Of a DNA stretch of 64,000 bases, positions 13,758 to 41,049 are shown piece after piece (the stretch's first letter is position 1; each line of letters begins with the position of its first letter). Under the pieces are notes generated by a model that was given only the letters and a program-made list of their open reading frames with translations, was not told the DNA's origin and did not search any database. The translations under genes and the position numbers were made by a program. This DNA is from a virus: the IMG/VR virus record IMGVR_UViG_3300032288_004702, positions 1 through 64,000 of that record. One strand, given 5' to 3'.

Positions 13758-14262
13758 TTTCGGTCTCCTCTAGCTGGCGAAGAAGAAGCATCGATTTCCA
13801 TGCGAAATCACGTTCTTCCAGCGTTTTGAATTCATATATATTGACATCTAACTTTATCATTCCATCACAGCATGAATTGGTCAGCATTTTCTGTTCGATG
13901 TCCCTGTCGATAAAGGACTTGACCGCTCTTTCTGTCTTGTCAATCTTTTTCCCCTTTTTGCCAACAGATTTCTTCGCTGGCATCTTGTCAAGCATTGAGT
14001 CTTTTATCGGGCGTGTCTTTTCTATGAAAGTTTCGTACCATGCTCCAGATGTTGGATTCTTTGGCGCATCCCACAGAAATCTCTGAAAGGGTGTTGAGCG
14101 AAGCTTTCTAAAGTCGCGAGCAGTTGCCGCGATGCTCATTATGTATCCCTTTACGGTTGTTCCATCCGGTTTTTCTATTATTGCGTCTTTTTCTCCGGGC
14201 TTTGCTTCGGCGTTGTAGTACACCCTGCTGTCGTTTAGTAGGCCAACAAGTATTGATTTCAT
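13747..14262 (-). CDS. hypothetical head-module protein
   Basis: 171-aa ORF overlapping both neighbours. Confidence 0.7.
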   Translation of the reverse strand: MKSILVGLLNDSRVYYNAEAKPGEKDAIIEKPDGTTVKGYIMSIAATARDFRKLRSTPFQRFLWDAPKNPTSGAWYETFIEKTRPIKDSMLDKMPAKKSVGKKGKKIDKTERAVKSFIDRDIEQKMLTNSCCDGMIKLDVNIYEFKTLEERDFAWKSMLLLRQLEETENVN

Positions 14263-20200: not shown

Positions 20201-21464
20201 TAAATCTTCTTACTTCCAAATCCGTCAAACGCCCAGCACCACCGCCAGATATGTTGACCAACTGCACATCCCAGCCCGCACGTCCGCCAGAATCTGAATG
20301 CATTTTCTGCAGAGCCTCTACGGCCTTGATATGCGCATCAGGGTCGGCCGGGTCTATTCCTAGCGAATCGTAAAGTCTGGCGACATTTGCTTTTTGTCTC
20401 GCGATATCATCCTGTCCACGAATTGCACCATTCTTAAACATGCGCAAGTTTTCTGGAACTGGGATATCTCTCCACTCCGGAGCCTCAAACTGCTCCGGCC
20501 ATAGCTCTTTGTAATAGGCGCATCTACCAAGAAATGCCGGGTCTGCCACGCCTCGCGATGATTCGCTCCATTGGTCGTTGTATACGAAGTTGAGCAACGA
20601 CCTAGCCGTATTTCTAAGCCCCTGGTATTCGCCTTCTGCGGTCATCTGCGCTGCTTGGCGTGCAGCAAATCTTGCAAAACGTGATGCACTAAAGCCGAAA
20701 CAGTTTGAACCAGTTGCATCGGTGAACTGATTGGCGGCAGGAGTTCCAGGCGGGCATCTGAATTTGTTATTTTCGTCCCGCAGAACACCAAATGCTGCGG
20801 CAGCGCGTGCTAAAAGTGAGCCCCCCGGAACGCGCGAGGCCAAACTTCTGCCAGGGAGCATTTTTTGCTCAACACCATTGTTTTTATGCTTTTGCAGTGC
20901 GCGTTGTTTTTCTTCGTAGGTCATCCCTGCGGCAATGCCAAAGGGGTCCATGACCCTTTCTGATTCAGGTATTACTTCGTCTGTTTTGGGGTTGACTTTG
21001 TATTTGCTTATTTTGATTGATGGCTTTTTTCTATAGCGCTCTATCAGCTCATCGAATGTCTTTGTTTGGTTTGGGGATGGAGAAATCCACCCAACATTTG
21101 GGCCAGTCCCCATGCCTTCACGTGACTGGAACGATGGGCTAATTACGAGTTTGTCGCCCGGCTCCCATTTCTTTGATGATTCCCACCTATACCCGAGGTT
21201 GTTTGACTCTACGCCAGGCTGCTTATCGCCGCTGAAGTCTCTTTTCTTATTGTCTGTGTCCGTGTAGGCCTTTACGCGAATTCCAAAGTTTGAGGTAATC
21301 GCTTTTACGGCAAGCTCAGGCTCAAGCCTTCCAGTTGATACAGATGAGTTTATTGCACGCCTGAATCTAATTGCTTTTTCGTTGAATCCACCACAGCATG
21401 AAGTTGGGACTATAAGCCGGGCAGAAACTATGACTCTTTCGCGTGTAGCAGGGGTATCCGCCAC
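14259..21464 (-). CDS. 2401-aa polyvalent protein (zincin peptidase, ART-like, ParB-like, DUF3626-like)
   Basis: HELAH (19644-19658) with downstream EAAAE; VIP2-like ART-shaped segment (~17820-18400); GIDRAKMPQ...PSQ...ILDGHHRW ParB-like; PVSGYL...FGDIEIVLRP...RTAY...EAQILGG DUF3626-like. Confidence 0.75.
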   Translation of the reverse strand: MADTPATRERVIVSARLIVPTSCCGGFNEKAIRFRRAINSSVSTGRLEPELAVKAITSNFGIRVKAYTDTDNKKRDFSGDKQPGVESNNLGYRWESSKKWEPGDKLVISPSFQSREGMGTGPNVGWISPSPNQTKTFDELIERYRKKPSIKISKYKVNPKTDEVIPESERVMDPFGIAAGMTYEEKQRALQKHKNNGVEQKMLPGRSLASRVPGGSLLARAAAAFGVLRDENNKFRCPPGTPAANQFTDATGSNCFGFSASRFARFAARQAAQMTAEGEYQGLRNTARSLLNFVYNDQWSESSRGVADPAFLGRCAYYKELWPEQFEAPEWRDIPVPENLRMFKNGAIRGQDDIARQKANVARLYDSLGIDPADPDAHIKAVEALQKMHSDSGGRAGWDVQLVNISGGGAGRLTDLEVRRFTEARLESIPGWPSLSKEEQTRLLDADVKRYQDTEKALFETLLDQFMKDPSSTRFLGRIEYDFNSPDEAGTGVYRSAPELVPRLNPDGTPVLDRDGNPVMRKVPGELRSVIHINMGMILANQESMLPDMRPDERLAISAVGARSEAESRLAVADFLVNADYAARGMAGLIDGVYSFSGHIMLHELAHHRQAQLFVEKIQNEIDEKGFISVPIMRDGVAVGSRNVDSIYALNGDDIMAIMTDVADSINIESLDDAMERIKAIAPLAGSYPRDVYAEGTEVWALEAAAELWALRERGIIYGDDIDAALEWMDNLSFATAARERASADDDSAMESMDDVFRIPTPTTVPDDIPEDVIEETLADRDERLASELREEIKRFKTAFSELPEEEMFSEAAIIASQRDDAKRRVDGFSAMEIDPSLPDDDRSALELLKSEAIKDAQREFDFHSKRYDEASKLWRKKYGVGASGEKKRFEEKVRAIREREGLLDAGEMEEIARLADLDDLRERVKGMPDKKVIRKLADDEVRLSTMDPASPEARDLAERIDVVKDQHAKNLKEAGDTRSIPAIKRDIDKRVKDTISPPPKPSKKFKSAKEAADHGARERRRVKATPEQKKAMKELGDVAESDVGMLLDPANQTRAGRAMNKRNARLKRLGLEVDPMSSDEADAVQQVEKLLIPTMEAIDGTSVADPFEIEAIIDFEPGALKGKMDGKEVDVDKFVSGRVITSRTKKTDMPERGRRDAKTGRTSRRVVVQVREGDRGLFPATGGEGEQKFVAPPGRLRIIGRDSDGTIRAEISYQKDAVEVVDSMADSLSKNKTDAIWAQSHSKKIQAVADRYVAKRRASGDTFPGPRSDYDESAAKSTSEVLDDVIDAGGSFGEGVDELPDGSSRLSSGAAAAAASATIMAKTKSDALGRPATRQQRTQSRESRMSSITRNIKKALGGGRGDGSISRGDIHPEVADLIANVPEEVLIVRAQMAAYRMHEGFDRRVRVRATDADIERLASGGSIRSPFSSPSDEASRASRRAERLAGMPAEQRSSRLSSGRTIDSSENLAERRRQEKEVAKRALSVFDDIINSGQNVNDMSDAELSRRFGGSVKRSGRKSISEKDSNLYEVDDVSTAVALMMLGHHVEVKDQDVRLTEQAQKAFEKQVKEVAKKHIEDGHPRWKAFQDEYAKLNPDADLDNPKTRKDMEDEYVGNYQADLCSLYNPENNLMCSGHIGIDRAKMPQTNGRSSGQNTKAIMALKAGIAAGKWEPSKDGVKRNRELEIEFADELDAKIAKINKKRAELDEPEDPVSDEEIPGILYEIIAEKHSLRNEFGGTTAREHKAASFDNLSDAAKQWLYENTNWNDTEVNLETPFIDWLNGIITVEDPENGPAVRLRTVDPSEYAPSQQQLVASKVDGTAQTIQEKAIEVAERIRKESPGLSDSEFREKYLEEMGKEWFMQPILTTKDNYILDGHHRWAGIVVGNRSLPKELQIPLSANEVQTDIVEGLTLGKVFQDAFGIKEARLGAELQWEGRQEDISPITQEEFDAISVDLSENAPRLIDEKYAEGDYIQLGSVGLKNNANYAEALENRRRLADTRRPSAAAIERERQLDEIIRAADIERSSRLSSGRENVGRMAKLRLSSGRSANNANQGEDIESGKTVGLSSENYAREYYSRIGIPDSVPTDSLPVSGYLVHKSHIDAKRQQIMNSRNGNLRPDAVYEIGDEDVVGDGLTAFGDIEIVLRPSVSERTAYGRGNSISSAHRPVKLNSRNREDVADAILNPDGINGNQQAQEAFLHMLSSSINNDFSNVNASRGSKGAMPNSFDRNLPDGSSREPFEAQILGGFDVNEIEQINIPFKRLEAAGEKEDISDAVNERSIADRLRAAGFTPEEIQYFYSIGGGKNINTQSMAMLRQYRAAQKIKTDMAGKGLNNIKFAHPTGFNIEDPRSHSKAAKGGESVESVLIKAIGNEITEAAKDMMKEMKNSRRPQITSTSGGML

Positions 21465-23189: not shown

Positions 23190-26100
23190 CTACTTTTTGC
23201 CAGAGGTTCTCTTCTTGCCTGAGAGTGTTTCCCCAGACTCGATTCTTTCCCTAGCTGTCCTCAACTGCTCGTCGCTAAATATGTCGTCGATGGTGTAGCT
23301 GGTGCCGAATATTTCATTAAACCTGTCAACCATTGATTGCATTTCTGCGCCAGAGAATCGCGGCTCATTTCCCTTTTTGGGAGACCATGGGGAGCCTTTC
23401 GCCGTGGCAGCAGCGCTCAGTGTCACGCCCATGTCCGTTGCCCCAGTGATTCTGTTCCGATTATCTCTGTTATTAAGTCTTGAATCAGGGAAACTCTTGT
23501 CAATGAACTCGTTTAATGCTTCATAGACAACATATTTTGAGTTTTTAAGTTCTGAATCAAAACGCTCGCCGGTATCTCCGTCTTTCCAGACTGACGAGGC
23601 GTCGGGCAGAACGCCGGTCCTAATCATCTGCGCAACGGTTGCAGTTGGAATTCCGTTCTTTGACCATTCATTGTTAATTCCGACATCGTCGGTACCAAAT
23701 GCGGCAGAAAGTCTTTCTTGCAATCCCTTTTTCCACTCCGCCCTGTCTATGCCGAGATAGTCAAGTAATGGCTCGATTTCAAAGTCTTCTCGTGAAGTCT
23801 TGTCTGCGATTATTGCCTCGCCAGCGCGCGCAACCTGCTCATCAGATGGGTTCAGAAGGTCGAATGATTCGCCGTATAGGTCAACTTCAGCCTCGGAATC
23901 ACCCTTTGTTGCGCTGTCTGGGGCAAATCGTCCAGTTGCACGGAATTTAGAAACCTCGCTGACCTCACCTAGCTGAGCGTACTCATCCGGCGTCATTGAC
24001 TCGTTCTCTTCCGTGTCAAACCAATGCGGGAAAGCGTCTTTACCGAATGTCTCGATAATGAATCTGTCTCGCATATTTGCGCGTCCAGCATTCTCTCTTG
24101 CTAGGTCAACATATGGGATATTTTCCGTCGTGTCGCCATCTGGGGATGGGATAATTCTCTTTGCCTCGTCAGCCGTTACGGGGGCAAAATATCTCCATGC
24201 TGCAAGGTCTGGCTGTTTGCCGAGCTCGGCAACTAACAAACGAACTGCATCATGGTTGATACCGGCGTCTGGCTCCTTGATTTTTGCTGTGTCGGCAGGG
24301 CTCAGTCCGAGCATTTTAGCCAACTCTTCACGTGTTGCTGGCCTTGATTGCGTCCAGCGAATCGTGGTGCCGCCTTCAGTATTTTCCCGTGAGGTGAACT
24401 CCGTTGGTATCCGTATTGTTTCGGCGAGCTTGTCTACCGAAAGCATCCACGTCTCAGCAGAAGGATTCTCGTTTCTGGAGTTGTCGCCAACTCTTCCAAC
24501 TCTGACGCGGTTCTGCTTCATCTGCATTGCCTTGCCAACATCCCTCATTGCCCCGCGCGTTCTTTGCTGGCGCTCATTTACTGAAAGGTCGTCAACATCG
24601 ACATCGATGGCAATGCCACGCTTGCGGACGCCATCCCATGCCTGCATTGCGTACTGTAGAGCCTCGCGATTTCGTGGAGTATCTGGGTTGCCATCTATGC
24701 GTATGCCGGCAAGCTGCTGGGCGCTAAGTGTGCCTGGATAAATGCTGCTTCCTGCGACGCGGCGGCTTCTGCGGCCAGGACGAGTGCCTGTCGCGCCGCT
24801 AGATAGGCGCATAGCTGTTCCATCGGCATTATCACCGTAATCCGCTTCCCCGTCTCCATCTATGTCATTGTCACGAATAGAGCCATCGATATCGTCATCT
24901 GTATCGATGTCGTCAGGTTCATAATCTTCTTTGTCTATGCCAATTTCGTTACCGTTTTCAGACCCAGGACCATCAGTAATCATGTCGTCCGTGATGACAA
25001 TAGGGCTATCGTCTTTTTCTTCCTTCTTATTCCCACGAGGTGGAAGGTTTTCAAAGTCAATATCCTCGAGGCGCGTTTCATTTAGTTGTTTATAGAATGC
25101 TGGCAGAGGTATCCCGCCATCATCGCTGAAAGCGCCTTTGTCAAGCTCCTGTGGGATGTGCCCATCTTTCACTGCCTGCGTCATTGCTGCGCGAATGTCT
25201 TTGGTCTTTTCATCATGCAAGTAGAATGCAAACGCTTTTGCGCCGGGGTCAATCATTTCCTTGGCGCGCGACATCGCTACGTGAACAAGGTTCGCTTCTT
25301 CCATGTAGCCGATAGATGCTTGACCAGGCTGTAGGGATTGGGCGATTGACTCCGCAGGGTCGCTCAGGTCTTCTGCTATTGCAACAAATCTCGACTCGCG
25401 ACCCTTTGACAGCTGCATTGTTGTTATTTCAACATCTCCGCCAGCATGTCTTGCCTCATCGCGTAGCGCTTGACCAATTCTATTTAGAATGTCGGCGCTT
25501 TCTTCTAGCGTTGCCCCCTCGATAACAAAACCATCATAAGCGCGTCGCTTTGCGTTTCCTTTCATGCCCTTTTCGGCTCCAGCCTGCGGTTTTACTTTAT
25601 CCTGAAGCCCGAGGCGCTTGATGATTTTTTCTAGGTCTCTTCTATAGCGTCCATTGCCGCCCTTGCGGTTTCCTGGAGGCTGGTTTGGAGACTGTGAGCC
25701 ATCTGGATTATCGATTGGACGCCCAGTATCAGCGCCATCTCCAGTTATCAGAATACGCCCAGTTGGCTTTCCTGGTTTTTTATTATCTCCGCCATCGATT
25801 TCAAGCTGTGCATACACTGCTTGGCGACCATCATTTGCAAATTTCGGCTGCGGTATTATTATTATTTGAGCCCTTTGGCTATCGATTGCCTGAACTGCCT
25901 CTGCAGCAGTTTTGCCGCGGGATATCCGAAGAACCTCTTCCCGTCCCGCAGTAAACGCATCTAGCTCAAGGGTCTTTCTTTCCGGGAGAAGACTTGGCGG
26001 TATAACCTTGACAATCTCTTTTCCTTTGTCGTTGGTCTCTCTTATCTGGCGCCCTTCAAGGAGGGTCAGCATGCCCATCGTTCCAAGTGGAGGGGCAGTT

Positions 26101-29100
26101 TTGTCGCCCTTGGGAGGCTCCATAATTAGCCTAAATGCAGTATTTGCCTGCTGATATCCAGCTTGATTAAGAATTCTCTCCAAGCCCTTTGCATCATAAA
26201 TCGGCCCAAGCCAGCTCGACTGTTCTGGAAGGCCAAACTTTTTCCTATATTCAGCTTTTGCAGTTGGCGACTTAAGTATGTAATCGAGATGTTTTGTAAA
26301 TTTGAGCAATTCTTCCCATTTGCTCAATGGGATGATTACTTCTGGCAGCTTCGGCAACCCATTTTCGTCGCGCTCAACGGCATCGCTATTGATTACTAGG
26401 CGTACGAAGTTAAGGGCCTCGTTGATTATCTCTGCGTTGCTTCTACACAGAATCATTGTTGGTAGATTGCCCTTATCGGCTTCTTCGACTCTGTCAACAA
26501 TCTTGCCAGCCTTGGGGCCGTATAGACTGTCTCTTAGCTCTGTTAGCGCAACATCTTGGGCATCGCGGTCCATTGCCGATATGTCAAGTTTTTTATCCGG
26601 CGTGGAGAATTTCTTATCTATGTCGGCAATCATTAGGGCGCGAGTTGCGTCGTCTACTTCATCTACCGGGTTATTACCTTTTCTGTCTTTTTCAGGGAGG
26701 AGGGGGTCGAAAAGTCTATTAATAACAGTCTGGGCCTGGCCCTTGACGTGTTTCCACGGGAGCTGGGGAACCCCCTGCTTGCGCAAGTAAAGATTTTGTT
26801 GCCCAAGAACAAGGTTAGCTAGATGCCCAATCACTTCCCCATATCTAAATGATTCTGTAATTGTCAATGCGTAGTCTGCATCCAGTGATTCAAGAATATT
26901 CTTTGCTTCGCGGAAAGCATAGACAGCCTGCCTATCGTCGCCCACAATAACAATAGGAAGATTTTTTCTGTTAGCGTCAAGAACGGCTTCTAGAACCTCG
27001 TTTGAGTCCTGTGCTTCGTCCACCATAAATGCGCCAAGTGGATTTTCTTTTGTTGCCATTCTTTTTGCGAGTTTTGCCTCGTTGTTTTTGCTGCCTTGCT
27101 GTTTTTTAACAGAAGTAACAATCCACTCTGCGCCATCTTTATCGACAATAACGTCGCCAACGGAGTACGAGTTTGGTATCTGGACCTTGTCTCTTGTTTG
27201 ATTTTCGGTATGTGTTATAAGGCCTGGGTCGCTGCGAAGGTCGGGATTTGTCAACATCCACAGTTTGGCAATTGAATCCCGTGGCGGAAGCATGTTGTTG
27301 TTACCGTCAGACATTGCGTCTATCGCTTTTTGTAGGTAACCGACCCATGAGTCTGGGATTTGCGCATCAGTCAAGACGGTGTCTACGGCGTGACGTTTTT
27401 TGCTTTGGCCCCTCTGTGTATCGAGTTCCTGCAGCACCCTTTCGGATGGTGTAAACATCCATTTTGCTGCTTTTTCTTCTTTTGATATATTCCAACGCTT
27501 AAGCGCATTGTTGAATACGTCTCCCATTTCCTCAATGGAGACGAATGTGCCGTCTGGGAGATTGAAGCCAGTTACTTCATACTCCTCCATTTGGGGCTTT
27601 CCGTCAGGGCCACGAACAACCTTCCCCTTGGCGTCCCTCACTTTGCGGCGTCGCTTCTGGGTTATCTGGTCTGGCCACTTATCCATGCCAAGGAACTTGG
27701 CCCAGTCCGTGCCGTCGTCTAGACGCTCCCATCCAAGGGCTCTGTATCCAGGCTCTTCTCCTGAGAATGTTTCAAAAGAGCCATCAAATAGTTCTCTTAC
27801 ATAATCAAAAGGAATGAACTCTGGCTCATCTGGGGTTTTTTCTGCGCTGATGAATTTTGGATTCTTTTTTGCACCGCGCGTCTTTTTTGATTCTGCACCG
27901 AGAAGAGCGAATTGCATTTTCCTGCGCATCCCCACGCCGTATCTCTCGTCCCCCTGGCCAAGCTTCAGAGACCAATACCAGAGCTTGTCGGTCGTGGAGA
28001 TTCCGGTATTCTTGGGGAATTCAAGTTCTGCTTCGAGCTGGTTCTTTTTATTGAACACTGCATAGTAGATATTGCCAATTTGATTTTCTTTTGCAAGCTT
28101 GTCTACTGCCGCCTTCACCTCATCAGCAGACATACCAGAGAAATCGACCTTGTATCTGTCCGCTAGATAGGCAAGCTGCTCGTCGCGTCTCTTATCGCCC
28201 TCTGGCCAAAGGTCAAACTCGCGCTGCAATGCCCACGCAATGCTCTTGAGTGTCGTTGTTTTACCAGTTCCGGCGCCGGCCAATATTGACAATATGCGCG
28301 GGTCTTTTTGTCTTATCAAGCGCATTGCGACATCCATGATGTCCCTCTGCTCATTTGTTGGCTCGTTTGCTAGACCAAAAGCAAACTTCATTGATATTTT
28401 TTCGTCTGTCCGCTCTACCTCTGGGACGCCATCTTTGCGCCCCTTAATTGGCCCGGCTGATTTACCACTGGCTAGACGACCGGATGGCGTTATTACAATT
28501 CCGTCCTTATTCTTCGACGGAGCATTTGGTGAGCGGTCAAATGAGCGAAGCTCGCGTTCGGCGACGCTTAGATTGACTGCGTCTGGAACAAGAGCTTCAA
28601 ATTCATCTGTATCCAACAGGTCTTCCATTGGTCCAGTTATTGTCGTGGTTGGCTTTATGCTTGGAGCGTCTTCGTAGCCGGCAAGCATCGGAACCTCAAA
28701 CCACGTGTCCATCCTGCCCTTGCGCTCGTCGTCCGGTATTCCGGCGAGTCGGCGCATTGTCGCTGAACGATTAAGCAGGTAATCGTTTGCCTGCTGTGCC
28801 TGAAGAATTGCGCGATGAAGGGCGAGTGGGTCCTGCTTCAGTTTCTTCAGCCATGAGTTTAGGTAAAGAAGATGGTCTTCTCTGACGGTTGGCTCAAGAC
28901 CCATTGCGCCCATTGCAAATGCTGAGCCAATTTCAGCAACAAGTTCCTCAAATGCATACTGTTCATCACCGAACTGCAAACCGAGCGTTCTGTTAAGTCT
29001 TGTTGGATGAGAAGTCCAGTGAATGGTCTCATGCATGGCGGTCCCATAGAAAGCAAGTGCATTTTCAAATTGCTCAAACGCCGGCATGTGTATTTTATCT

Positions 29101-32100
29101 GTTGATGGGCGATAGAAAGCCTGTGAACCCTTAGACTCAACAAACGCAGGACCAATCTCCTGAATTACGTTCTCAATATCCTGAAGCCGCTCTTCCTGAT
29201 TTATCTCTAAATCATCAACTTTGTAGAACCTTTCAGGAAGGCCCTCTACATCGTCAACGTTATAAACAGTTTGGACAACGTAGAATTTTCCTTGACTCAC
29301 TTCTTTCCCGTCAGAGCCAACAAACGTTCTTCCCTCGCGAGGTACCAGAATTGCGACACCCTTGCTGCGTGCCCCGGGCTTTAGTCGACCACCCAAACGC
29401 TTCCACTGGCTCTCCCCTGCCCACCTGCTGGTTTTGTATCCGCGCGCAGAACCAGTAAGTGAAAGAATCATCTGGTTCATGCCCTGATAGATGCGACCGC
29501 GCGTTGGATTACGCGCGTATAGCTCTGGATTTCTCCACGGCATCTTCCACTGCCCAGCCTTGTCTGGGTTATCAATTAGCTCCTGTAGGAGGTCGACAAT
29601 GTTCTTTGCCATCTCTTCGTACAGCTCTTGTAGCTGAGATGAATCCTCCGGAAGCTCCGCTTTGTCTTTTAGCTTTCCTGAAGAAAGTGAAGCCAGTGGA
29701 CCGTCAAACTTTCTTGCTTCATCGCGCGAGCGCTTGGACTCTGGCTTATCCAGGTACTTGGCATAACCACTCGACAGCATCTGCGTGTCGGCTGCCTGCG
29801 ATGCTGTTTTTGGAGCCTTGCGGACAATTGATTCTTTTTTGGGTTTTGCTTTTGGCTTCTTCTCGCGCTCCATGTCGCGTTCTGCAAGCTTTTCAACCCT
29901 CTTCATGTATCTATCTAGCTCGGCAATAGCTTTCTTTAAGCGCTTTACCTGCTCTGGGTCGGTCGCACCATCAAGTACACCCTGAAGCTCATCTCTCTGT
30001 GATTCCGCAATTCCGTATTTTTGAGCAGAATCAACATCCGGGTCGTCGATGCGGGGGAGGTCAAACAGTTTTCCGCTACTCAAAACAAAATCATCGGCTG
30101 ATGAGGGTTTTGTGGGGGCTGGCCCACGTGAATACTTGCCCGGCTTTTCTCTGAAATTTTCATCAAGCTCCGGTCTACTGACCGGTTTGGTAAATTTTGG
30201 TACCCCTATTTCAGACTCTGGCTTGGCGAGCTGGCGTGGTGATGGTTTTGGGTTCCTTATCGAGCCTGGCCCATCTGGTGTCGGGTCCGGCGTGGCGAGG
30301 GGTACGCCTCGGAGAAACAATCCCTCTCCAACTATCCCGTTAAGGTTTGCATCACGAGCTGTGAATGGGTCGAAGTCTTCCGCCCCAATTGATGTGAAGA
30401 ATCTTCCGCGCGAGCGTCCGCCACCAATGTTTGGTCTGTCTATTAATCTGCTGCCGATTGCGCGGCCAAGCCTATAGCCAGCCGCTTTCCATTCTATGTC
30501 GTCTTCAGTTAGAGATTTTTTTTTTAGGTTTTCTATAGCGGTATCAACCGCCTCAATCAGTTCGTAGCTAACGCCAGACGTCATGACGATTCCATCAACG
30601 TCGACAAACGAATCAACACCGTGGTAATCAAAAATTGGGTCTAGGGCCTGCTTTACGCGGAATGCAAACTTGGGCATTATCGGAAGCACATAAGCCTTGC
30701 CTGAAACATCGTCATCGTCAGGCATTCCAAATTCGCTGAGCGTCTTATACTTGCGGCGCTTCTTGCGACGTCTGCCGATTGCGCCACGGAGGCCAGCTAT
30801 TAGAAGTTCCCCTGGGTACTTGACCTCAAGGTCATATACGTAATCCTCTTCGTTTACTTCTTCGTCTATCTCGTAGCTCTTCTTGGCCATTGCATCGCCA
30901 TTAACGACGCCATTAGGTATAACCGCAAAGCGGCACTTGCCCTCTGACTCAATGTCCATATCAATTATCTTGCAGGAATTTCCACCCTGGAAAAAGACGC
31001 AGTTCGCGCACTTAACCCCAATTCCCGCAACCGGGTTCTCGGCTGCTGGCTTATATCCAGCCCATACGCCGTCCGAATCCTCGTTGAATTTGCCGTGGCG
31101 CTTTACGATTTTTAGCAACGCATCGCGTAGGTCGGCTTCCTCTTTGTCGAGGTTGTTGGGGTCAAAATCTTGTTCTTTTTCGTTTTCGTACTCAACCGGG
31201 GGAAGGGGGACGATTCTGTTTCCATTCTCCCCAGGCTTAATCGCTATCGGCATCGACGGCATTTGCGGAGGGCGCACAATTCTGCGTGGCTCATCCATTG
31301 GCATCATCGGTTGAGACATTGGGGCGACCGGCTTGCGTGTCGGAAGAACTATGATTTGCTCTGGTGCGCCAAACATGAAACGACCATGATTTCGGCTAAA
31401 TCCACACTTGAAGCGCCCAACCTCGCCATTTTCCATTCTTTTAGCGAAAGTTATTTCATCTTCCCCAATATCCATAAGGGAGACTTTTGAGCCAATGATT
31501 GTTGCTAGCTGCTTTTCTAGTTCGGCGCGGTCGATAGAGTCGTCTTCGTCGTCCATCATGGCCATCGCACCCATTGCCATGTCCTCCGACTTTACGGAAA
31601 TAGTTCCGGTGAGCTGATTTGCCCCATGAAGAACTGGGGAAACCTCATAAAGCTCCAGCTCATAGATGACATTCGCCTGAGACTTCTGGTCATATTGAGC
31701 GCGCAGGGTCTTGTAGCCAATTGACCACTCCTGCTCTTCACCAAAAAACGCAACCATCGCAAATGCTTCGCGGCCTTTTTCTGAGTTAAGGTTAAATTGC
31801 ACTCTTGCAAATAGACCGCCGATGCCGGCCATCTTCATTTTCATCGGGAGGCGCGGGTCGGTATTGGGAACTTCGTAAATCTCTAGAACTTTTCCGATTG
31901 GGTCGTTCCAGTTGTGCCCCCATACAACTCTTGGCTTTCTGCGCTGGAGGCTCTTCGTAAAAGCCCCACTGGAAACAATGTCGCCTACGGAGTCCCTATT
32001 GCCAATGCCGGCAACAAAACACTCAACTATCCCCTGAGCCTCGTCCAGATTAATCGCTCCGGCCTTAGCGGAAATCCCGCTACCTAGCGAAGTTGACTTA

Positions 32101-32126
32101 TATTCGAACAGTTCAGCCGGCATCAA
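23190..32126 (-). CDS. 2978-aa prohead protease-fused polyprotein (S78 protease, HiPIP-like, ArdC/zincin, UvrD-like SF1 helicase, unknown C-terminus)
   Basis: Protease: WGHNW, WSIGY, LYEVSPV. ArdC: WKMPW..NPTRGRIYQGMN...AFYRPSTDKIHMP...HETIHWT...YAFEELVAE. Helicase: AGAGTGKTT, DEAQD, GDDRQAVYAFR, SFRYG, SKGRE, HVAMSRA. Confidence 0.88.
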   Translation of the reverse strand: MMPAELFEYKSTSLGSGISAKAGAINLDEAQGIVECFVAGIGNRDSVGDIVSSGAFTKSLQRRKPRVVWGHNWNDPIGKVLEIYEVPNTDPRLPMKMKMAGIGGLFARVQFNLNSEKGREAFAMVAFFGEEQEWSIGYKTLRAQYDQKSQANVIYELELYEVSPVLHGANQLTGTISVKSEDMAMGAMAMMDDEDDSIDRAELEKQLATIIGSKVSLMDIGEDEITFAKRMENGEVGRFKCGFSRNHGRFMFGAPEQIIVLPTRKPVAPMSQPMMPMDEPRRIVRPPQMPSMPIAIKPGENGNRIVPLPPVEYENEKEQDFDPNNLDKEEADLRDALLKIVKRHGKFNEDSDGVWAGYKPAAENPVAGIGVKCANCVFFQGGNSCKIIDMDIESEGKCRFAVIPNGVVNGDAMAKKSYEIDEEVNEEDYVYDLEVKYPGELLIAGLRGAIGRRRKKRRKYKTLSEFGMPDDDDVSGKAYVLPIMPKFAFRVKQALDPIFDYHGVDSFVDVDGIVMTSGVSYELIEAVDTAIENLKKKSLTEDDIEWKAAGYRLGRAIGSRLIDRPNIGGGRSRGRFFTSIGAEDFDPFTARDANLNGIVGEGLFLRGVPLATPDPTPDGPGSIRNPKPSPRQLAKPESEIGVPKFTKPVSRPELDENFREKPGKYSRGPAPTKPSSADDFVLSSGKLFDLPRIDDPDVDSAQKYGIAESQRDELQGVLDGATDPEQVKRLKKAIAELDRYMKRVEKLAERDMEREKKPKAKPKKESIVRKAPKTASQAADTQMLSSGYAKYLDKPESKRSRDEARKFDGPLASLSSGKLKDKAELPEDSSQLQELYEEMAKNIVDLLQELIDNPDKAGQWKMPWRNPELYARNPTRGRIYQGMNQMILSLTGSARGYKTSRWAGESQWKRLGGRLKPGARSKGVAILVPREGRTFVGSDGKEVSQGKFYVVQTVYNVDDVEGLPERFYKVDDLEINQEERLQDIENVIQEIGPAFVESKGSQAFYRPSTDKIHMPAFEQFENALAFYGTAMHETIHWTSHPTRLNRTLGLQFGDEQYAFEELVAEIGSAFAMGAMGLEPTVREDHLLYLNSWLKKLKQDPLALHRAILQAQQANDYLLNRSATMRRLAGIPDDERKGRMDTWFEVPMLAGYEDAPSIKPTTTITGPMEDLLDTDEFEALVPDAVNLSVAERELRSFDRSPNAPSKNKDGIVITPSGRLASGKSAGPIKGRKDGVPEVERTDEKISMKFAFGLANEPTNEQRDIMDVAMRLIRQKDPRILSILAGAGTGKTTTLKSIAWALQREFDLWPEGDKRRDEQLAYLADRYKVDFSGMSADEVKAAVDKLAKENQIGNIYYAVFNKKNQLEAELEFPKNTGISTTDKLWYWSLKLGQGDERYGVGMRRKMQFALLGAESKKTRGAKKNPKFISAEKTPDEPEFIPFDYVRELFDGSFETFSGEEPGYRALGWERLDDGTDWAKFLGMDKWPDQITQKRRRKVRDAKGKVVRGPDGKPQMEEYEVTGFNLPDGTFVSIEEMGDVFNNALKRWNISKEEKAAKWMFTPSERVLQELDTQRGQSKKRHAVDTVLTDAQIPDSWVGYLQKAIDAMSDGNNNMLPPRDSIAKLWMLTNPDLRSDPGLITHTENQTRDKVQIPNSYSVGDVIVDKDGAEWIVTSVKKQQGSKNNEAKLAKRMATKENPLGAFMVDEAQDSNEVLEAVLDANRKNLPIVIVGDDRQAVYAFREAKNILESLDADYALTITESFRYGEVIGHLANLVLGQQNLYLRKQGVPQLPWKHVKGQAQTVINRLFDPLLPEKDRKGNNPVDEVDDATRALMIADIDKKFSTPDKKLDISAMDRDAQDVALTELRDSLYGPKAGKIVDRVEEADKGNLPTMILCRSNAEIINEALNFVRLVINSDAVERDENGLPKLPEVIIPLSKWEELLKFTKHLDYILKSPTAKAEYRKKFGLPEQSSWLGPIYDAKGLERILNQAGYQQANTAFRLIMEPPKGDKTAPPLGTMGMLTLLEGRQIRETNDKGKEIVKVIPPSLLPERKTLELDAFTAGREEVLRISRGKTAAEAVQAIDSQRAQIIIIPQPKFANDGRQAVYAQLEIDGGDNKKPGKPTGRILITGDGADTGRPIDNPDGSQSPNQPPGNRKGGNGRYRRDLEKIIKRLGLQDKVKPQAGAEKGMKGNAKRRAYDGFVIEGATLEESADILNRIGQALRDEARHAGGDVEITTMQLSKGRESRFVAIAEDLSDPAESIAQSLQPGQASIGYMEEANLVHVAMSRAKEMIDPGAKAFAFYLHDEKTKDIRAAMTQAVKDGHIPQELDKGAFSDDGGIPLPAFYKQLNETRLEDIDFENLPPRGNKKEEKDDSPIVITDDMITDGPGSENGNEIGIDKEDYEPDDIDTDDDIDGSIRDNDIDGDGEADYGDNADGTAMRLSSGATGTRPGRRSRRVAGSSIYPGTLSAQQLAGIRIDGNPDTPRNREALQYAMQAWDGVRKRGIAIDVDVDDLSVNERQQRTRGAMRDVGKAMQMKQNRVRVGRVGDNSRNENPSAETWMLSVDKLAETIRIPTEFTSRENTEGGTTIRWTQSRPATREELAKMLGLSPADTAKIKEPDAGINHDAVRLLVAELGKQPDLAAWRYFAPVTADEAKRIIPSPDGDTTENIPYVDLARENAGRANMRDRFIIETFGKDAFPHWFDTEENESMTPDEYAQLGEVSEVSKFRATGRFAPDSATKGDSEAEVDLYGESFDLLNPSDEQVARAGEAIIADKTSREDFEIEPLLDYLGIDRAEWKKGLQERLSAAFGTDDVGINNEWSKNGIPTATVAQMIRTGVLPDASSVWKDGDTGERFDSELKNSKYVVYEALNEFIDKSFPDSRLNNRDNRNRITGATDMGVTLSAAATAKGSPWSPKKGNEPRFSGAEMQSMVDRFNEIFGTSYTIDDIFSDEQLRTARERIESGETLSGKKRTSGKK

Positions 32127-32255: not shown

Positions 32256-34361
32256 TTAAACAGTTTGTCCAAAGCTCCAGGCAGACCTAGTTTCCCGCTC
32301 GGCAAGCTCTTCCTGCTCGTGGGCAAAAAAGTTTGTGTACATCTCAACAAGGCCGTCTCTGAAGAACGAGAATCTTCTTTCCTCATCTGCGTATTCAAAC
32401 GACTTAATCATCAGTGAATTTATCTCGCTGAAGTTTTCGTCGTTTATTTTCTTGATTCTTGCAACATGTGCGTCAACCATTGTTCGTACATCTTTCGCCG
32501 GCATCGCCTTTACTCTTATGCCGTTTTCCGATGCATCCTTGACTCTTGCCTCAAAAGAATCGTTAATGATTGACGAAATGACTGGTCGGAGGTCTTCGTC
32601 AAACTGACGATTCCATGTGTCAATCGAAAGCACCGCATCTATGTCAAGCGTTCCGCCCATAAGGGCTTTTTTGGCTTTTGCTCCGCTGGCTTTTTCCAGA
32701 ACAACGCGCTGCTGTCTTTCAACAACGCGCTCTATCCCGCGCGCAAGAATGTTCGACCACCGCTCAACTGCTAGCTCGGTTTTGTCTATCGACTCTTTTA
32801 CGTCTTGTTGTTCATCTTCGGTTTTGGTTTCAATTTCATCAGATGCTGACGAAGCCATTGTCATAGGGCCTGGCGGCATTCCGGGGGCAGGTACTCCTGC
32901 CATTGCCTCTGGCGGAACTGTTGTTTGGGCGAGCTGACCTTCTGTGGCAGATTCTGCGAGGGCTCCAGCCATTGTGTTGACATCGAGCGGAACGCTTTCG
33001 CCCGGAGGAGGAACCGGCCCAGGCACTCCCGGGGGCATACCCGGCATACCAGGCGGCATACCAGGCATTCCCGGCATTCCCGGCATGCCTGGTGCTCCAG
33101 GGATTTGCGTTTGCCCTTCTTCCATCTTCTTTTTTGTATTTGCTATAGGTATTAGGTTTGGATTCTGGAGCAAAGAGTCAGCCAAATCTGCTTCTACCTC
33201 TTTGCGCGAAGAGCCGATTCTGTATTCATTGGCACTGATGAGTCCAGACTGGAACTCCTGAAGAAGATATTTATCCCTCTCCTGCTTATAAAGCATAAGA
33301 ATAGGAACTTCCGAGGTATCAAAATCTAAGTAGTACTTCTCGTCAAGTTCGTCTAATGCTCTGGCCAAAGGCTCTAGGTGAGGAAGCATTGTTTCCATCC
33401 AGAACACCCGTATTTCCTCTGCGGCGTTGCTAAATGTTCTTCCAGCTGCATTACCGATGACTGATTCCGGTACGCCGAAGGCCGAAAGAATTTCCTCTTT
33501 TGTTATCTGTCTCATCTGGATGTAGGCAGCATCTCTTGGATTGGCAGATGTATCAACAAAGTCGACACCATCATCTGCCGCGATAACTGTGGTGTGCCCA
33601 GCCCTGGCCAGATTCCCCCTAAACCTGCTACGCAACTCTTCCTTGTCGTCCTCATCTATCTCGCCGCGGACAACCAATAGACCGCCAGGCCTGCCATCAT
33701 TCAGTAGATAATTTCTGTTATATAGCTTGGCTAGATTCTCAATCTCAATCGCCACGCCAGATGCCTCAAGGGGCGTAAGCGATAGATATGGGTCCAGCGG
33801 GTGCGGTCTTCTAACCCAGCAAACATCTTCTGGTTTTAAAAATTTCTTTTCTCCGTAAGGCATCTGTACTTCGTAGCCGGAAACAAATGTCTTTGGGTCT
33901 GGAATTGGCGCTGTCGATTGTGGTGGAAGAAGATTCAGTGCAATTATTCTTCCGTCTCGGCCATATATCTTTTCAATAAACGCGCCGCGCGTGCCCAATA
34001 GAAGCTGAGCAGAGAGCCTGTACCTAAAGATGAAGGAGTTTTCACCAATATTGGCCTTATTGTTCAGAAGCTCCAACAAAGTTGAACGGTTTGCTTCCCT
34101 GCCACGGACTATCTCGCCCTGATTGGAATTATCTTTCCTCAGGATTATTGGAAGCCGTGCTTGGTTGCCGGCAATTGCATCAATGCACCGATTAACCCAG
34201 GTGATTTTGGACATTCCCTCGCGGTATGCCCGCTCGATGTCCCACGAATCCCTATACGCCTTGCCGGCAAGGGATGGGTTGATGGAGATTGGCGCTCCAT
34301 ACCCAAGGTCTTTGCGAGACTGGGAATTTATATTCTTGTTTTGCGGCGAGTTCCAGCCCAT
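32256..34361 (-). CDS. portal protein (HK97 family) with PGM-repeat linker and C-terminal MuF-like extension
   Basis: WVNRCIDAIA, PLDPYLSLTPL, NDGRPGGLL, EILSAFGVPESVIG, ISANEYR; about 290 extra C-terminal residues. Confidence 0.92.
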   Translation of the reverse strand: MGWNSPQNKNINSQSRKDLGYGAPISINPSLAGKAYRDSWDIERAYREGMSKITWVNRCIDAIAGNQARLPIILRKDNSNQGEIVRGREANRSTLLELLNNKANIGENSFIFRYRLSAQLLLGTRGAFIEKIYGRDGRIIALNLLPPQSTAPIPDPKTFVSGYEVQMPYGEKKFLKPEDVCWVRRPHPLDPYLSLTPLEASGVAIEIENLAKLYNRNYLLNDGRPGGLLVVRGEIDEDDKEELRSRFRGNLARAGHTTVIAADDGVDFVDTSANPRDAAYIQMRQITKEEILSAFGVPESVIGNAAGRTFSNAAEEIRVFWMETMLPHLEPLARALDELDEKYYLDFDTSEVPILMLYKQERDKYLLQEFQSGLISANEYRIGSSRKEVEADLADSLLQNPNLIPIANTKKKMEEGQTQIPGAPGMPGMPGMPGMPPGMPGMPPGVPGPVPPPGESVPLDVNTMAGALAESATEGQLAQTTVPPEAMAGVPAPGMPPGPMTMASSASDEIETKTEDEQQDVKESIDKTELAVERWSNILARGIERVVERQQRVVLEKASGAKAKKALMGGTLDIDAVLSIDTWNRQFDEDLRPVISSIINDSFEARVKDASENGIRVKAMPAKDVRTMVDAHVARIKKINDENFSEINSLMIKSFEYADEERRFSFFRDGLVEMYTNFFAHEQEELAERETRSAWSFGQTV
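33020..33100. repeat. coding tandem repeat (about 9-nt units, Pro-Gly-Met) in the portal
   Basis: ccggcata/ccggcatt units encode PGMPGMPGMPGMPPGMPGM. Confidence 0.7.
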
Positions 34362-39964: not shown

Positions 39965-40843
39965 ATGTCAAACGGCATACATGAATCATTACTTTCCCTA
40001 GCAGTAGACATAGACACCCTGATACCACTAGACAACAACCCGCGGCGAGGTGATGTTGCTGCGATTATGTCCTCGTATAAAGAGTTTGGTCAAATAAAGC
40101 CAATAGTGATACGTCCGAACGATGATGGAACAGCAACCGTAATTGCTGGCAACCATCAGTTGCAGGCTGCAAAACAACTTGGATGGAACAAAATTGCAGC
40201 AGTCCCATATGACGTAGATGGCGAACGCGCAATAGCATTCGCAATAGCGGACAATAGAACAATGGAACTTGGCTACACGGAGCCAGAACTGCTTAATGAA
40301 GTAATCCTTGAATTGGCTGATGTTTACCCAGAGTTGATGACAGGACTCGGATGGGATGAATTCTCTACGGCGGAGATAGAGCAAAAAGTAATCCGCCAAG
40401 ACAATAGAGTTATCGAGCCTGGTGCTGGTTTTGTCCCGCCTGTCATAACTGACAATTCTGGTAACGGTTTCACGTCAAGCGGAACTGGGTTCGATAGATA
40501 TGGAGACTCAGGGGATGATGAAGAAGACGAGTACGAGCCTGTTCCCAATCGTCCATCGCTCGATAGAAATGCTGTCACTGTTACACAAACGGACGATGGA
40601 AAACAGAGAATAGACATAAGGCCTGGAATTGACCAAAACGACGCTGTTATTCGAGGCTCAACAACCGTTGCCCCTGGCTCTGCTCCACAGGCCGTAGTTC
40701 AATACACAATAGTATTTGACAACACAGCGCAACAGGCTAGGTGGTATGAATTTATTAAGTGGCTGCGCTCTGACTCTGCAGTAGTAGGAACAACGACTGC
40801 AGAAAAATTAATCGACTTTATTGACCAACACATAGAGATTTGA
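39965..40843 (+). CDS. ParB/Srx-domain protein
   Basis: NPRRGD...EFGQIKPIVI...VIAGNHQLQAAKQLGW...IADNRT. Confidence 0.85.
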   Translation: MSNGIHESLLSLAVDIDTLIPLDNNPRRGDVAAIMSSYKEFGQIKPIVIRPNDDGTATVIAGNHQLQAAKQLGWNKIAAVPYDVDGERAIAFAIADNRTMELGYTEPELLNEVILELADVYPELMTGLGWDEFSTAEIEQKVIRQDNRVIEPGAGFVPPVITDNSGNGFTSSGTGFDRYGDSGDDEEDEYEPVPNRPSLDRNAVTVTQTDDGKQRIDIRPGIDQNDAVIRGSTTVAPGSAPQAVVQYTIVFDNTAQQARWYEFIKWLRSDSAVVGTTTAEKLIDFIDQHIEI

Positions 40844-40844
40844 A

Positions 40845-41048
40845 ATGAATCAAGAACTAGAACAAAAATGTCGTTATCTTCTTAATCGCGGTAGAGTATC
40901 AAAGCAGGAATGCGTAGACATCCTGTCGATTCTCGATGAGCGCATATCCGAAGCAACCTACTGGAAAGCCGTCGCCGAAAAAGCACTCTCAGAGAATGGC
41001 GAGCTAAAAGCCGAAGTAGCAAGACTAAACCAAATAGCGCGGTACTGA
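40845..41048 (+). CDS. hypothetical protein
   Basis: 67-aa ORF tightly packed in the operon. Confidence 0.6.
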   Translation: MNQELEQKCRYLLNRGRVSKQECVDILSILDERISEATYWKAVAEKALSENGELKAEVARLNQIARY

Positions 41049-41049
41049 A

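What the first reader, a model, noticed from the sequence alone, without database searches (positions are those of the whole stretch)
23190..32126. Prohead protease fused to about 2800 aa of anti-defence/DNA-processing cargo (ArdC-zincin + SF1 helicase)
Seen: residues ~1-180 form an intact HK97-type S78 protease. It is followed by a HiPIP-like Cys domain, a DxNxNGxVxEG Ca-binding-like loop, a complete ArdC (ssDNA-binding + HExxH, ~28770-29630), a ~1050-aa UvrD-like helicase with large insertions (~25230-28370) and a ~530-aa unknown tail. Established: the prohead protease is packaged inside the procapsid; ArdC is a plasmid anti-restriction protein; ArdC and zincins are hallmarks of phage/plasmid 'polyvalent proteins'. 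Inference: the protease acts as a packaging tag that loads enzymes into the head for delivery at injection, protecting or unwinding the incoming DNA.
Basis: partly seen in the sequence, partly recalled or inferred. Interest (0 to 1): 0.85.

Follow-up and report, generated by a model that had tools for sequence, protein, structure and literature searches.

The report
Head protease leading a cargo polyprotein
An uncultured 156-kb tailed phage fuses its only capsid-maturation protease to anti-restriction, helicase and unknown modules in one 331-kDa protein. A conserved run of ten A's and a repeated Leu-Ser-Ser-Gly junction peptide suggest a Gag/Gag-Pol-like way of loading, cutting and delivering enzymes through the phage head, but nothing has been shown by experiment.

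Summary
ORF 23190-32126 (-) is unbroken and conserved end to end (55-76% identity) in 15 collinear homologues on independent metagenome contigs. It belongs to a family with at least 570 stretches in IMG/VR. The domain calls hold: S78 protease, ArdC-N plus zincin, and an SF1 helicase with all motifs. HiPIP is only a sub-threshold match, and the 535-aa tail folds confidently but matches no known fold.

1. Every inter-module linker carries [RK]-L-S-S-G. Counts are 652 observed against 21 expected across 114 homologues. In this genome the motif is confined to three giant proteins and the tape-measure-like protein.
2. An A10 run, the longest homopolymer in the genome, sits exactly between the protease N-module (aa 1-537) and the cargo. 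An A9-A11 run is kept in 79 of 80 informative related loci, and stops follow within 2-7 codons in both shifted frames. Four loci are out of frame at this site. This fits programmed slippage that gives both a bare protease and a protease-cargo form.
3. A 65-aa leader just after the run also heads a separate 3061-aa giant protein.

Packaging, cleavage, slippage and ejection are all inferred. The scan has reported the same family, motif and A-run on related phage genomes. I rate it a new variant of the polyvalent / internal-protein theme.

The parts
23190..32126 (-). Whole gene: protease-led cargo polyprotein. 2978 aa from TTG; the probable start is ATG at 32123, giving 2977 aa and 331 kDa.
31557..32126 (-). 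S78 (HK97-type) prohead protease domain, aa 1-190. H71, S135 and H167 are invariant.
   Evidence: It is the only S78 in the genome.
30516..31556 (-). Rest of the conserved N-module, aa 191-537. It is a scaffold-like extension and includes the invariant Cys4 cluster (aa 373-398, window 30933-31010).
30516..30525 (-). A10 homopolymer (T10 on the + strand) encoding K535-K537. Candidate slip site between the protease module and the cargo.
30294..30488 (-). Leader element, aa 547-611: LGRxxGSRxIDRPxIGxGR followed by a DxNxNGxVxEG loop.
30072..30083 (-). Junction peptide 1, VLSSGK (aa 682-685).
29766..29777 (-). Junction peptide 2, MLSSGY (aa 784-787).
29676..29687 (-). Junction peptide 3, SLSSGK (aa 814-817).
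28809..29627 (-). ArdC-like module: ArdC-N ssDNA-binding domain (aa 834-925) plus the MPTase-PolyVal zincin (aa 984-1106, HETIH at 1032).
28464..28475 (-). Junction peptide 4, RLASGK (aa 1218-1221).
25137..28379 (-). SF1 (UvrD-like) helicase with two large insertions, aa about 1250-2330.
24795..24806 (-). Junction peptide 5, RLSSGA (aa 2441-2444).
   Evidence: It lies in a disordered stretch of the model.
23193..24794 (-). Conserved C-terminal module of 535 aa. It is folded (pLDDT 84), its fold and function are unknown, and it has weak HTH hints.
32256..34361 (-). Portal protein, immediately upstream in the same operon.
14259..21464 (-). Second giant protein (2401 aa) with 5 LSSG/LASG junctions and an HELAH zincin motif.
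8232..9587 (-). HK97-type major capsid protein with an N-terminal delta-like region. The boundary reads QLSSREIK/SIG.
48998..53785 (+). 1595-aa tape-measure-like protein carrying two LSSGR motifs.

Best explanation
The gene encodes a capsid-directed cargo polyprotein led by the phage's only head-maturation protease.

Shown by sequence:
- Residues 1-537 are an S78 protease plus a conserved scaffold-like extension. This corresponds to the roughly 400-550-aa stand-alone proteases of related phages.
- Next comes a run of ten A's, then a 65-aa leader.
- After the leader come the enzyme modules: an ArdC-type ssDNA binder with zincin, an SF1 helicase and a 535-aa unknown module. They are separated by the peptide [RK]-L-S-S-G.

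Inferred:
1. Slippage on the A10 run, most likely by RNA polymerase as in Thermus dnaX, gives two products. One is a roughly 60-kDa bare protease that stops 3-4 codons after the run. The other is the 331-kDa protease-cargo form.
2. The N-module, the leader, or both take the long form into the procapsid.
3. The protease cuts at the junction peptides. This would free ArdC (46 kDa), the helicase (136 kDa) and the tail module (59 kDa) inside the head.
4. These proteins leave with the DNA and act first in the next host, by protecting or unwinding the incoming DNA against restriction.

Two other giant proteins of the same phage use the same junction code. One of them has the same leader.
For: Real and conserved:
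- Collinear homologues at 55-76% identity lie on independent contigs. More than 100 giant relatives have the protease at the N-terminus.
- At least 570 stretches in IMG/VR encode relatives.
- 277 clusters at 50% identity match at E<=1e-30. Lengths run continuously from 180 to 5358 aa, always with the protease first.

Head context:
- The operon runs portal, this gene, a 527-aa acidic protein, the 2401-aa giant, further genes, then an HK97-type capsid gene. The same synteny holds in distant lineages.
- This is the only S78 in a complete genome with terminal repeats.

Junction peptide:
- There are 5 sites in this protein, all in linkers, and 652 observed against 20.9 expected over 114 homologues.
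- LSSG is the only multi-copy 4-mer.
- The flanks are unconserved across 587 contexts.
- Codons vary freely, including TCN and AGY serines, so selection acts on the peptide.
- In the genome's 202 ORFs the motif is confined to three giants and the tape-measure-like protein, apart from one chance hit.
- It occurs in homologues that have no HExxH motif, and it is absent from protease-less polyvalent proteins that carry the same zincin.
- Other lineages carry G-F/L/M-A/R-S-R or A-G-M-A/S at the joints instead.
- The capsid protein of LSSG lineages reads QL(S/T)SR at its delta boundary, and other lineages read G-Y-A or A-Y-A there.

Slip site:
- The A10 run is the longest homopolymer in 156 kb. The gene uses AAA 102 times and AAG 115 times.
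- An A9-A11 run sits at the same codon position in 79 of 80 informative loci, in about 27 different flanking contexts and down to 50% protein identity.
- Both shifted frames stop within 2-7 codons in every locus, against 13% of positions in this gene.
- Four loci are out of frame exactly there, yet keep an intact leader and cargo frame.
- Precedent: the Thermus dnaX A9 run gives about 50% truncated product (PMC1088944).

Leader: an HMM of aa 540-612 finds only one other place in the genome, the N-terminus (aa 21-97) of the 3061-aa giant, at E 5e-13.
Against: - There is no direct evidence for packaging, cleavage, slippage or ejection.
- The protease domain is almost invariant while the junction peptides differ between lineages. 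Some proteins with 75-80% identical proteases have no LSSG.
- The tape-measure-like protein, which is not a head protein, also carries LSSG.
- Each giant has its own HExxH zincin, so another protease could read the code.
- The capsid protein has no exact LSSG, and its boundary also carries EIK/S, an HK97-like after-Lys site.
- The A-run is absent from the outgroup lineages and from L078, so the fusion strategy works without it.
- No RNA structure accompanies the run.
- The protease could not be modelled (pLDDT 55), so no docking test was possible.
Confidence: 0.6

Rival explanations
1. The junction peptides are not read by the prohead protease. They may be cut by the zincin domains that each giant carries, as Iyer et al. 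proposed for MPTase autoprocessing. They may be cut by a host protease after ejection. Or they may be uncut flexible linkers, so that the giant travels intact like the N4 virion RNA polymerase.
For: - Each of the three giants has an HExxH motif.
- The tape-measure-like protein, outside the head, has two LSSGR motifs.
- The protease domain stays 75-80% identical in proteins without LSSG.
- The capsid protein boundary has an HK97-like EIK/S. Four invariant Phi-[ES]-x-K sites delimit the domains of the N-module.
- The N4 vRNAP and plasmid ArdC are transferred unprocessed (PMC5512222).
Against: - LSSG-type or GFAS-type motifs are abundant in homologues with no HExxH at all (P0091-P0093).
- They are absent from polyvalent proteins that carry the same MPTase family without the protease (P0112, P0113).
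- P0089 and P0090 have the MPTase but use GFASR, not LSSG.
- The core Phi-small-Ser resembles the (V/L)-x-A/S sites of assemblin, which shares the protease fold (from my own knowledge).
- The capsid boundary of LSSG lineages reads QLSSR.
Confidence: 0.22
2. The protein is not packaged. The protease serves as a cis-acting processing enzyme of a cytoplasmic polyprotein, as in RNA-virus polyproteins. It would release replication or anti-defence enzymes in fixed ratios during late infection.
For: - No packaging evidence exists.
- A load of 331 kDa per protease copy is very large for a capsid that also holds 156 kb of DNA.
- The outgroup lineages have no slip site to lower the cargo dose.
Against: - The gene sits in the canonical protease slot of the head operon. 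It is the only head protease, so it must enter the procapsid to mature an HK97-type capsid protein that has a delta domain.
- The cargo types (ArdC, zincin, helicase, exonuclease, HTH or sigma parts) are those of polyvalent proteins that act at entry (PMC5512222).
- Late expression makes little sense for anti-restriction unless the protein is carried to the next cell.
Confidence: 0.1
3. The A-run is not a programmed expression signal. It is a hypermutable DNA tract (phase variation of cargo loading), or is simply tolerated. The out-of-frame loci would then be mutants or sequencing errors.
For: - Run length differs (A9, A10, A11) between close relatives, and 4 loci are out of frame.
- L054 differs from L026-L030 only by one A.
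- Long A-runs are also replication-slippery (PMC1088944).
- No stimulatory RNA structure is present.
Against: - The homopolymer is kept at the nucleotide level in 79 of 80 loci and about 27 contexts, with AAG never used.
- Immediate stops in both alternative frames occur everywhere.
- The out-of-frame loci keep intact downstream frames of more than 2400 codons, and the leader lies 9-16 codons after the frame opens. That makes sense only if slippage restores the fusion.
Confidence: 0.2
4. The fusion is an assembly or annotation artefact, or a pseudogene.
For: The joint coincides with a homopolymer, the classic place for indel errors.
Against: - 75 of 79 loci from many samples and assemblers are in frame.
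- There are no internal stops over 2978 codons.
- All catalytic motifs are intact.
Confidence: 0.02

Closest known systems
Polyvalent proteins of phages and conjugative elements (Iyer, Burroughs, Anand, de Souza, Aravind 2017, PMC5512222)
   Same: It is a giant multi-domain protein encoded beside the portal/terminase genes. It carries ArdC-N, the MPTase-PolyVal zincin and helicase domains in shuffled orders, and is predicted to travel with the DNA.
   Different: That paper reports assemblin-like peptidases as rare and 'always at the C termini'. Here the S78 protease is at the N-terminus and is the phage's sole head protease. It is followed by a slip site, a leader and a repeated junction peptide, none of which that paper describes.
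T4 internal proteins IPI-III and Alt: capsid targeting sequence removed by prohead protease gp21 (PMC3012670)
   Same: Anti-restriction or host-modifying proteins are loaded into the prohead through a short N-terminal leader, trimmed by the head protease and injected with the DNA.
   Different: The T4 proteins are small separate genes, and the protease (S77) is a separate gene that cuts after Glu. Here many modules are strung into polyproteins, one of them covalently joined to the protease, with a different junction motif.
Retroviral Gag / Gag-Pro-Pol, and dnaX tau/gamma recoding (Thermus A9 transcriptional slippage, PMC1088944)
   Same: One gene gives a short structural or protease product and a long product that carries enzymes into the particle, where the viral protease cuts them out. 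The A-run with immediate stops in both other frames has the same layout as Thermus dnaX.
   Different: Standard decoding here gives the long form in most phages, and slippage gives the short one. That is the dnaX logic and the reverse of Gag-Pol. Neither slippage nor the product ratio has been measured.
Brevibacterium phage Cantare gp13 and related actinophage head maturation proteases
   Same: Cantare gp13 is the nearest cultured relative of the protease domain (37% identity over aa 20-190). Its portal is 45% identical. It is a myovirus with a similar head gene order, and large unknown proteins lie between the portal and the protease.
   Different: Cantare's protease is 417 aa with no cargo. 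Its large head-region proteins are separate genes.
phiKZ/SPN3US inner-body and ejection proteins processed by the head protease (PMC5694885; Thomas et al. 2012, from my own knowledge)
   Same: Many large head-internal proteins are cut at a short consensus motif by one prohead protease.
   Different: Those phages have a T4-type protease that cuts after Glu. There is no fusion of cargo to the protease and no slip site.

Membership tests
Peptidase S78 (HK97-type prohead protease) | Match to the family profile above the curated cut-off | tested here: met
   PF04586 gives 44.6 bits against a cut-off of 21 at aa 33-183. phrog_80 gives 1e-28. Identity to the annotated Cantare protease is 37%.
Peptidase S78 (HK97-type prohead protease) | Conserved catalytic His and Ser | tested here: met
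   H71 (GHNW), S135 (EWSIGY) and H167 (VLHGAN) are invariant in 38 and 46 homologues. Their assignment as catalytic residues is by position only, because no usable structure model was obtained.
Peptidase S78 (HK97-type prohead protease) | Position in the head operon next to the portal, with an HK97-fold capsid protein to process | tested here: met
   The portal lies directly upstream. The capsid protein matches 1ohg at E 2.7e-51 and has an N-terminal delta-like region.
ArdC anti-restriction protein | N-terminal ssDNA-binding ArdC-N domain | tested here: met
   PF08401 gives 55.5 bits against a cut-off of 22.6. phrog_7245 gives 1e-68.
ArdC anti-restriction protein | C-terminal zincin with HExxH plus a downstream Glu | tested here: met
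   PF18818 gives 135.5 bits. HETIH is at 1032 and EELVAE lies downstream.
ArdC anti-restriction protein | Protects incoming DNA from restriction | not testable with these tools
   This needs an anti-restriction assay of the isolated module.
SF1 (UvrD/Rep-like) helicase | Full motif set: Walker A, II (DExQ), III, V and VI | tested here: met
   The motifs are GAGTGKT at 1284, DEAQD at 1703, GDDRQAVYAFR at 1729, KGRES at 2241 and VAMSRAK at 2283. PF00580 gives 42.6 bits and PF13245 gives 32.6 bits.
Polyvalent protein (Iyer et al. 2017) | Several unrelated effector domains in one chain, encoded with a portal/terminase packaging system | tested here: met
HiPIP (high-potential iron-sulfur protein) | Profile match and a four-Cys cluster | tested here: inconclusive
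   Four invariant Cys are present (C-x2-C-x8-C-x12-C). PF01355 gives only 15.4 bits against a cut-off of 22, E 0.024. The model of this part is unreliable.
Programmed transcriptional slippage site (dnaX-type) | A homopolymer of at least 9 A or T, conserved at the nucleotide level, with defined products in the shifted frames | tested here: met
   An A9-A11 run is present in 79 of 80 loci, and stops follow within 2-7 codons in both shifted frames.
Programmed transcriptional slippage site (dnaX-type) | Heterogeneous mRNA and two protein products | not testable with these tools
   This needs RNA sequencing and protein analysis.

The most novel reading that the evidence does not exclude
A large clade of uncultured actinophage-like myoviruses uses a Gag/Gag-Pol-like system. 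A programmed slip on a conserved A-run sets the ratio of bare protease-scaffold to protease-scaffold-cargo. A portable 65-aa leader addresses cargo polyproteins to the procapsid. A lineage-specific junction peptide (LSSG here, GFASR, GMASR or AGMA elsewhere) is the cutting code read by the head protease. Together these would make a modular, evolvable platform for injecting many enzymes with the DNA.
Probability: 0.4. Interest if true: 0.85.

Novelty: new variant of a known kind. Interest (0 to 1): 0.7.

Why it matters
If this holds, tailed phages have their own version of the retroviral strategy. One gene would make a structural protease and, by recoding, a version that drags a string of enzymes into the particle, where a short peptide code releases them. 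That would explain how phages with 150-kb genomes deliver hundreds of kilodaltons of counter-defence enzymes. It would give a readable rule (leader plus junction peptide) for predicting virion cargo from sequence in uncultured phages. It would also offer a natural design for loading foreign proteins into capsids. The family is abundant in metagenomes and viral contig collections, so the prediction can be tested by viral-fraction proteomics without a cultured host.

Tried and rejected
- **N-module fold.** An AlphaFold model of aa 1-700 with 38 homologues was poor (mean pLDDT 55, protease part 30-68). I therefore could not test the protease fold or whether a junction peptide docks in the active site.
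- **Tail module (aa 2442-2978).** The model is confident (pLDDT 84). Foldseek against PDB gave nothing at E<=0.001. VIA-align wide gave a best Z of 4.7, which is noise level. The ESM Atlas by shape gave TM<=0.33 and by features gave no usable hit. Pfam gave only faint HTH hints.
- **Protease against PDB sequences.** phmmer found no hit.
- **Loci search with the tail alone.** The single-sequence search found nothing.
- **RNA structure near the A-run.** None was found: mean z was -0.4 upstream and -0.7 downstream over 27 lineages.
- **LSSG as a DNA-level repeat for recombination.** Rejected, because the codons vary freely.
- **The A-run as a by-product of Lys codon bias.** Rejected, because the gene uses AAA 102 times and AAG 115 times.
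- **Assembly artefact.** Rejected.
- **Co-variation of the capsid-boundary peptide with the junction peptide.** This could be tested in only three lineages and is suggestive, not clean. The P0091 lineage is not in IMG/VR. The ENA and JGI records L086-L088 could not be searched for their capsid genes. Contigs of the P0097 lineage were too short.
- **The motif Phi-[ES]-x-K-[SAY].** It is not enriched genome-wide (20 observed against 17 expected), only in the N-module.

Full report
**What is there**

The window is the first 64 kb of a complete 156,276-bp IMG/VR virus record with direct terminal repeats. On the minus strand, ORF 23190..32126 reads 2978 codons without a stop. The probable start is the ATG one codon in, at 32123. 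A GAAGGG ribosome-binding site lies 7 nt upstream of it, and an identical 2977-aa protein is on record (P0002). Residue numbers below count from the TTG.

The domain calls are as follows.
- Pfam places Peptidase_S78 at aa 33-183, ArdC-N at 834-925, the MPTase-PolyVal zincin at 984-1106, and UvrD/AAA_19 pieces at 1252-1344 and 1683-1743. All core hits are above the curated cut-offs.
- PHROGs agree: anti-restriction protein 1e-68, DNA helicase 1e-28, head maturation protease 1e-28.
- The zincin HETIH motif and the full SF1 helicase motif set are intact.

Only the HiPIP label stays open. The four Cys are invariant, but the HiPIP profile scores 15.4 bits against a cut-off of 22.

**Context**

The gene lies in a long minus-strand head operon:
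- portal (32256-34361)
- this gene
- a 527-aa very acidic protein
- a 2401-aa giant protein
- five smaller genes
- an HK97-type major capsid protein at 8232-9587 (phrog_10 at 5e-58; 1ohg at 2.7e-51)

The large terminase is divergent at 34705-36018. A tail sheath, a 1595-aa tape-measure-like protein and baseplate genes lie on the plus strand. The phage is thus a myovirus.

The portal and protease are closest to cultured actinophages: Brevibacterium phage Cantare (portal 45%, protease domain 37%) and Gordonia phage GMA6. This gene holds the only S78 match in the genome.

**The fusion is real and belongs to a big family**

- Fifteen collinear homologues share 55-76% identity over the full length, on independent contigs from JGI, ENA and Logan.
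- In all, 113 giant proteins matched. Nearly all carry the protease at residue 1.
- A pattern scan of IMG/VR found at least 570 encoding stretches.
- An exhaustive profile-free search with aa 1-540 found 277 clusters at E<=1e-30. Among the best 150 representatives the lengths form a continuum: 41 are under 650 aa, 47 are 650-1500 aa and 62 are over 1500 aa, up to 5358 aa. The protease is always first.
- Aa 1-640 is conserved at 46-69% across the family, while the cargo is shuffled. ArdC may come before or after the helicase, and the tail module may be internal. Some members carry sigma-70 region 4, KTSC, pentapeptide repeats, wHTH arrays or ferritin instead.

**Junction peptide**

All five inter-module linkers of this protein contain L-[SA]-S-G, at aa 682, 784, 814, 1218 and 2441.

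- Over 114 homologues the motif occurs 652 times against 20.9 expected, up to 18 times in one protein.
- The logo from 587 distinct contexts is [RK]-L-S-S-G-[KRA] with featureless hydrophilic flanks.
- LSSG is the only multi-copy 4-mer.
- Codons at the 22 sites in this genome vary at every synonymous position, including both serine codon families, so the peptide is what is selected, not the DNA.
- Among the genome's 202 ORFs the motif is confined to this protein (5 sites), the 2401-aa giant (5), a 3061-aa giant at 145149-154334 (10) and the tape-measure-like protein (2). There is one further chance hit.
- If the sites are cut, the products would be 75.5 kDa (protease, N-module and leader), two small basic peptides, ArdC at 46 kDa, the helicase at 136 kDa and the tail module at 59 kDa.

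**Who reads the peptide?**

Three points favour the head protease.
- The motif is abundant in family members that have no HExxH anywhere. It is absent from protease-less polyvalent proteins that carry the same MPTase family.
- Other lineages of the family carry a related core at the joints: G-F/L-A-S-R, R-G-M-A-S-R, G-F-R-S or A-G-M-A/S. All share a hydrophobic residue followed by a small residue and Ser or Ala.
- The capsid protein of five LSSG-lineage phages reads Q-L-(S/T)-S-R just before the conserved SIG that starts the region aligned to solved mature capsids. Lineages that use GFASR read G-Y-A there, and those that use AGMA read A-Y-A.

Four points count against it.
- The protease domain is nearly invariant even in proteins without LSSG.
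- The tape-measure-like protein is not a head protein.
- Each giant has its own zincin.
- A second motif, Phi-[ES]-x-K followed by S, A or Y, occurs six times in aa 1-548 against about 0.2 expected. Four of its lysines are invariant and sit at domain ends (K10, K179, K436, K547). It occurs again as EIK/S at the capsid boundary, which matches the after-Lys cut known for HK97.

I put cleavage at LSSG at about 65%, and cleavage by the S78 protease at about 50%.

**Slip site**

One syntenic relative has the gene split into a 543-aa protease and a 2354-aa cargo gene. The two frames change inside a run of ten A's. The window has the same A10 in frame, at 30516-30525 (codons CTA AAA AAA AAA, K535-K537).

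- It is the longest homopolymer in the 156-kb genome, although the gene uses AAG slightly more often than AAA.
- Of 80 informative related loci, 79 have an A9-A11 run at this codon position, in about 27 different flanking contexts and down to 50% protein identity. The one exception (L078) has a 15-residue deletion.
- In every locus both shifted frames stop within 2-7 codons. That holds at only 13% of positions in this gene.
- 75 loci are in frame. Four need a -1 frame, yet keep an open cargo frame of up to 2551 codons in which the leader starts 9-16 codons after the frame opens.

This is the layout of Thermus dnaX, where an A9 run gives about half truncated product through transcriptional slippage (PMC1088944). 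No conserved RNA structure flanks the run. The outgroup lineages have no such run.

I reached this reading before seeing that another follow-up of this scan reported the same on a related genome (e1-5685001). The two are not independent evidence, because the sequences are homologous.

**Leader**

Directly after the run lies a 65-aa element, conserved across the family, of the form LGRxxGSRxIDRPxIGxGR followed by DxNxNGxVxEG. An HMM of the element finds one other place in the genome, the N-terminus of the 3061-aa giant, at E 5e-13. In both proteins the first LSSG follows roughly 30-70 residues after the element ends.

The cargo part of this gene (leader plus LSSG-delimited modules) is therefore the same kind of unit as a free-standing cargo polyprotein, here joined to the protease module through the slip site. 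The leader is my candidate for a capsid-targeting sequence of the T4 kind (PMC3012670). This is inference only.

**What could not be settled**

- The N-module model was unreliable.
- The tail module folds well but matches nothing in PDB or the ESM Atlas.

**Comparison with what is known**

The protein meets the definition of a polyvalent protein (PMC5512222). That paper found assemblin-like peptidases to be rare and only at C-termini. I found no paper describing an N-terminal head protease leading such a protein, the junction code or the slip site. In function it combines three known ideas:
- T4-type targeting and trimming of internal proteins
- phiKZ-type multi-site processing
- dnaX or Gag-Pol-type production of two proteins from one gene

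I file it as a new variant of a known kind.

**Verdict**

All functional steps (slippage, packaging, cutting, ejection, anti-restriction) remain to be shown. The scan has reported the same family, motif and A-run on several related genomes (e1-5742924, e1-5659907, e1-5685001, e1-5765864).

Noticed in passing
window 14259-21464 (-): A 2401-aa giant with no Pfam or PHROG hit as a whole. It has 5 LSSG/LASG junctions, an HELAH zincin motif at aa 603 and, by eye, a ParB/Srx-like DGHHRW motif near aa 1875. A giant of similar size (1468-2494 aa) lies at the same place in all relatives examined.
   Followed up: partly
G000 145149-154334 (-), outside the window (L085:1150-10335): A 3061-aa giant with the same leader at its N-terminus, 10 LSSG/LASG junctions, an RNase_T/DEDD exonuclease at aa 790-981 (E 1.3e-10) and an HEYGH zincin motif at aa 1382.
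   Followed up: partly
window 48998-53785 (+): A 1595-aa tape-measure-like protein between the sheath and baseplate genes. It carries two LSSGR motifs (aa 36 and 581) although it is not a head protein. Which protease would reach it is unexplained.
   Followed up: no
window 21479-23062 (-): A 527-aa protein directly after the polyprotein gene, kept in synteny (459-571 aa) in all lineages. It has an N-terminal Cys-rich stretch followed by an extremely acidic Asp/Glu/Met-rich region, and no family hit. It could be a scaffold or an internal acidic protein.
   Followed up: no
window 8232-9587 (-): The HK97-type capsid protein has a delta-like N-terminal region of about 100-140 aa. It carries EIK/S twice (K57, K101), YNVK/D (K141) and LSSR at 95-98. 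The true maturation site cannot be chosen from sequence alone.
   Followed up: partly
window 39965-42189 (+): A ParB_N-like gene and a PAPS-reductase-like gene lie side by side. The same pair is conserved next to the terminase side of the head module in all distant relatives examined (L004, L086-L088). They may be a DNA-modification pair.
   Followed up: no
window 32256-34361 (-): The portal profile covers only aa 56-381 of the 701-aa portal. The C-terminal 300 aa or so are unassigned. Related actinophage portals are annotated as portal-MuF fusions.
   Followed up: no
L086-L088, L091-L099, L114 (related loci): Outgroup lineages of the same phage group use other junction peptides (DGFASRG, RGMASR, GF/LRS, AGMA/S) and have no homopolymer of 8 or more bases in the protease-polyprotein gene.
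   Followed up: partly
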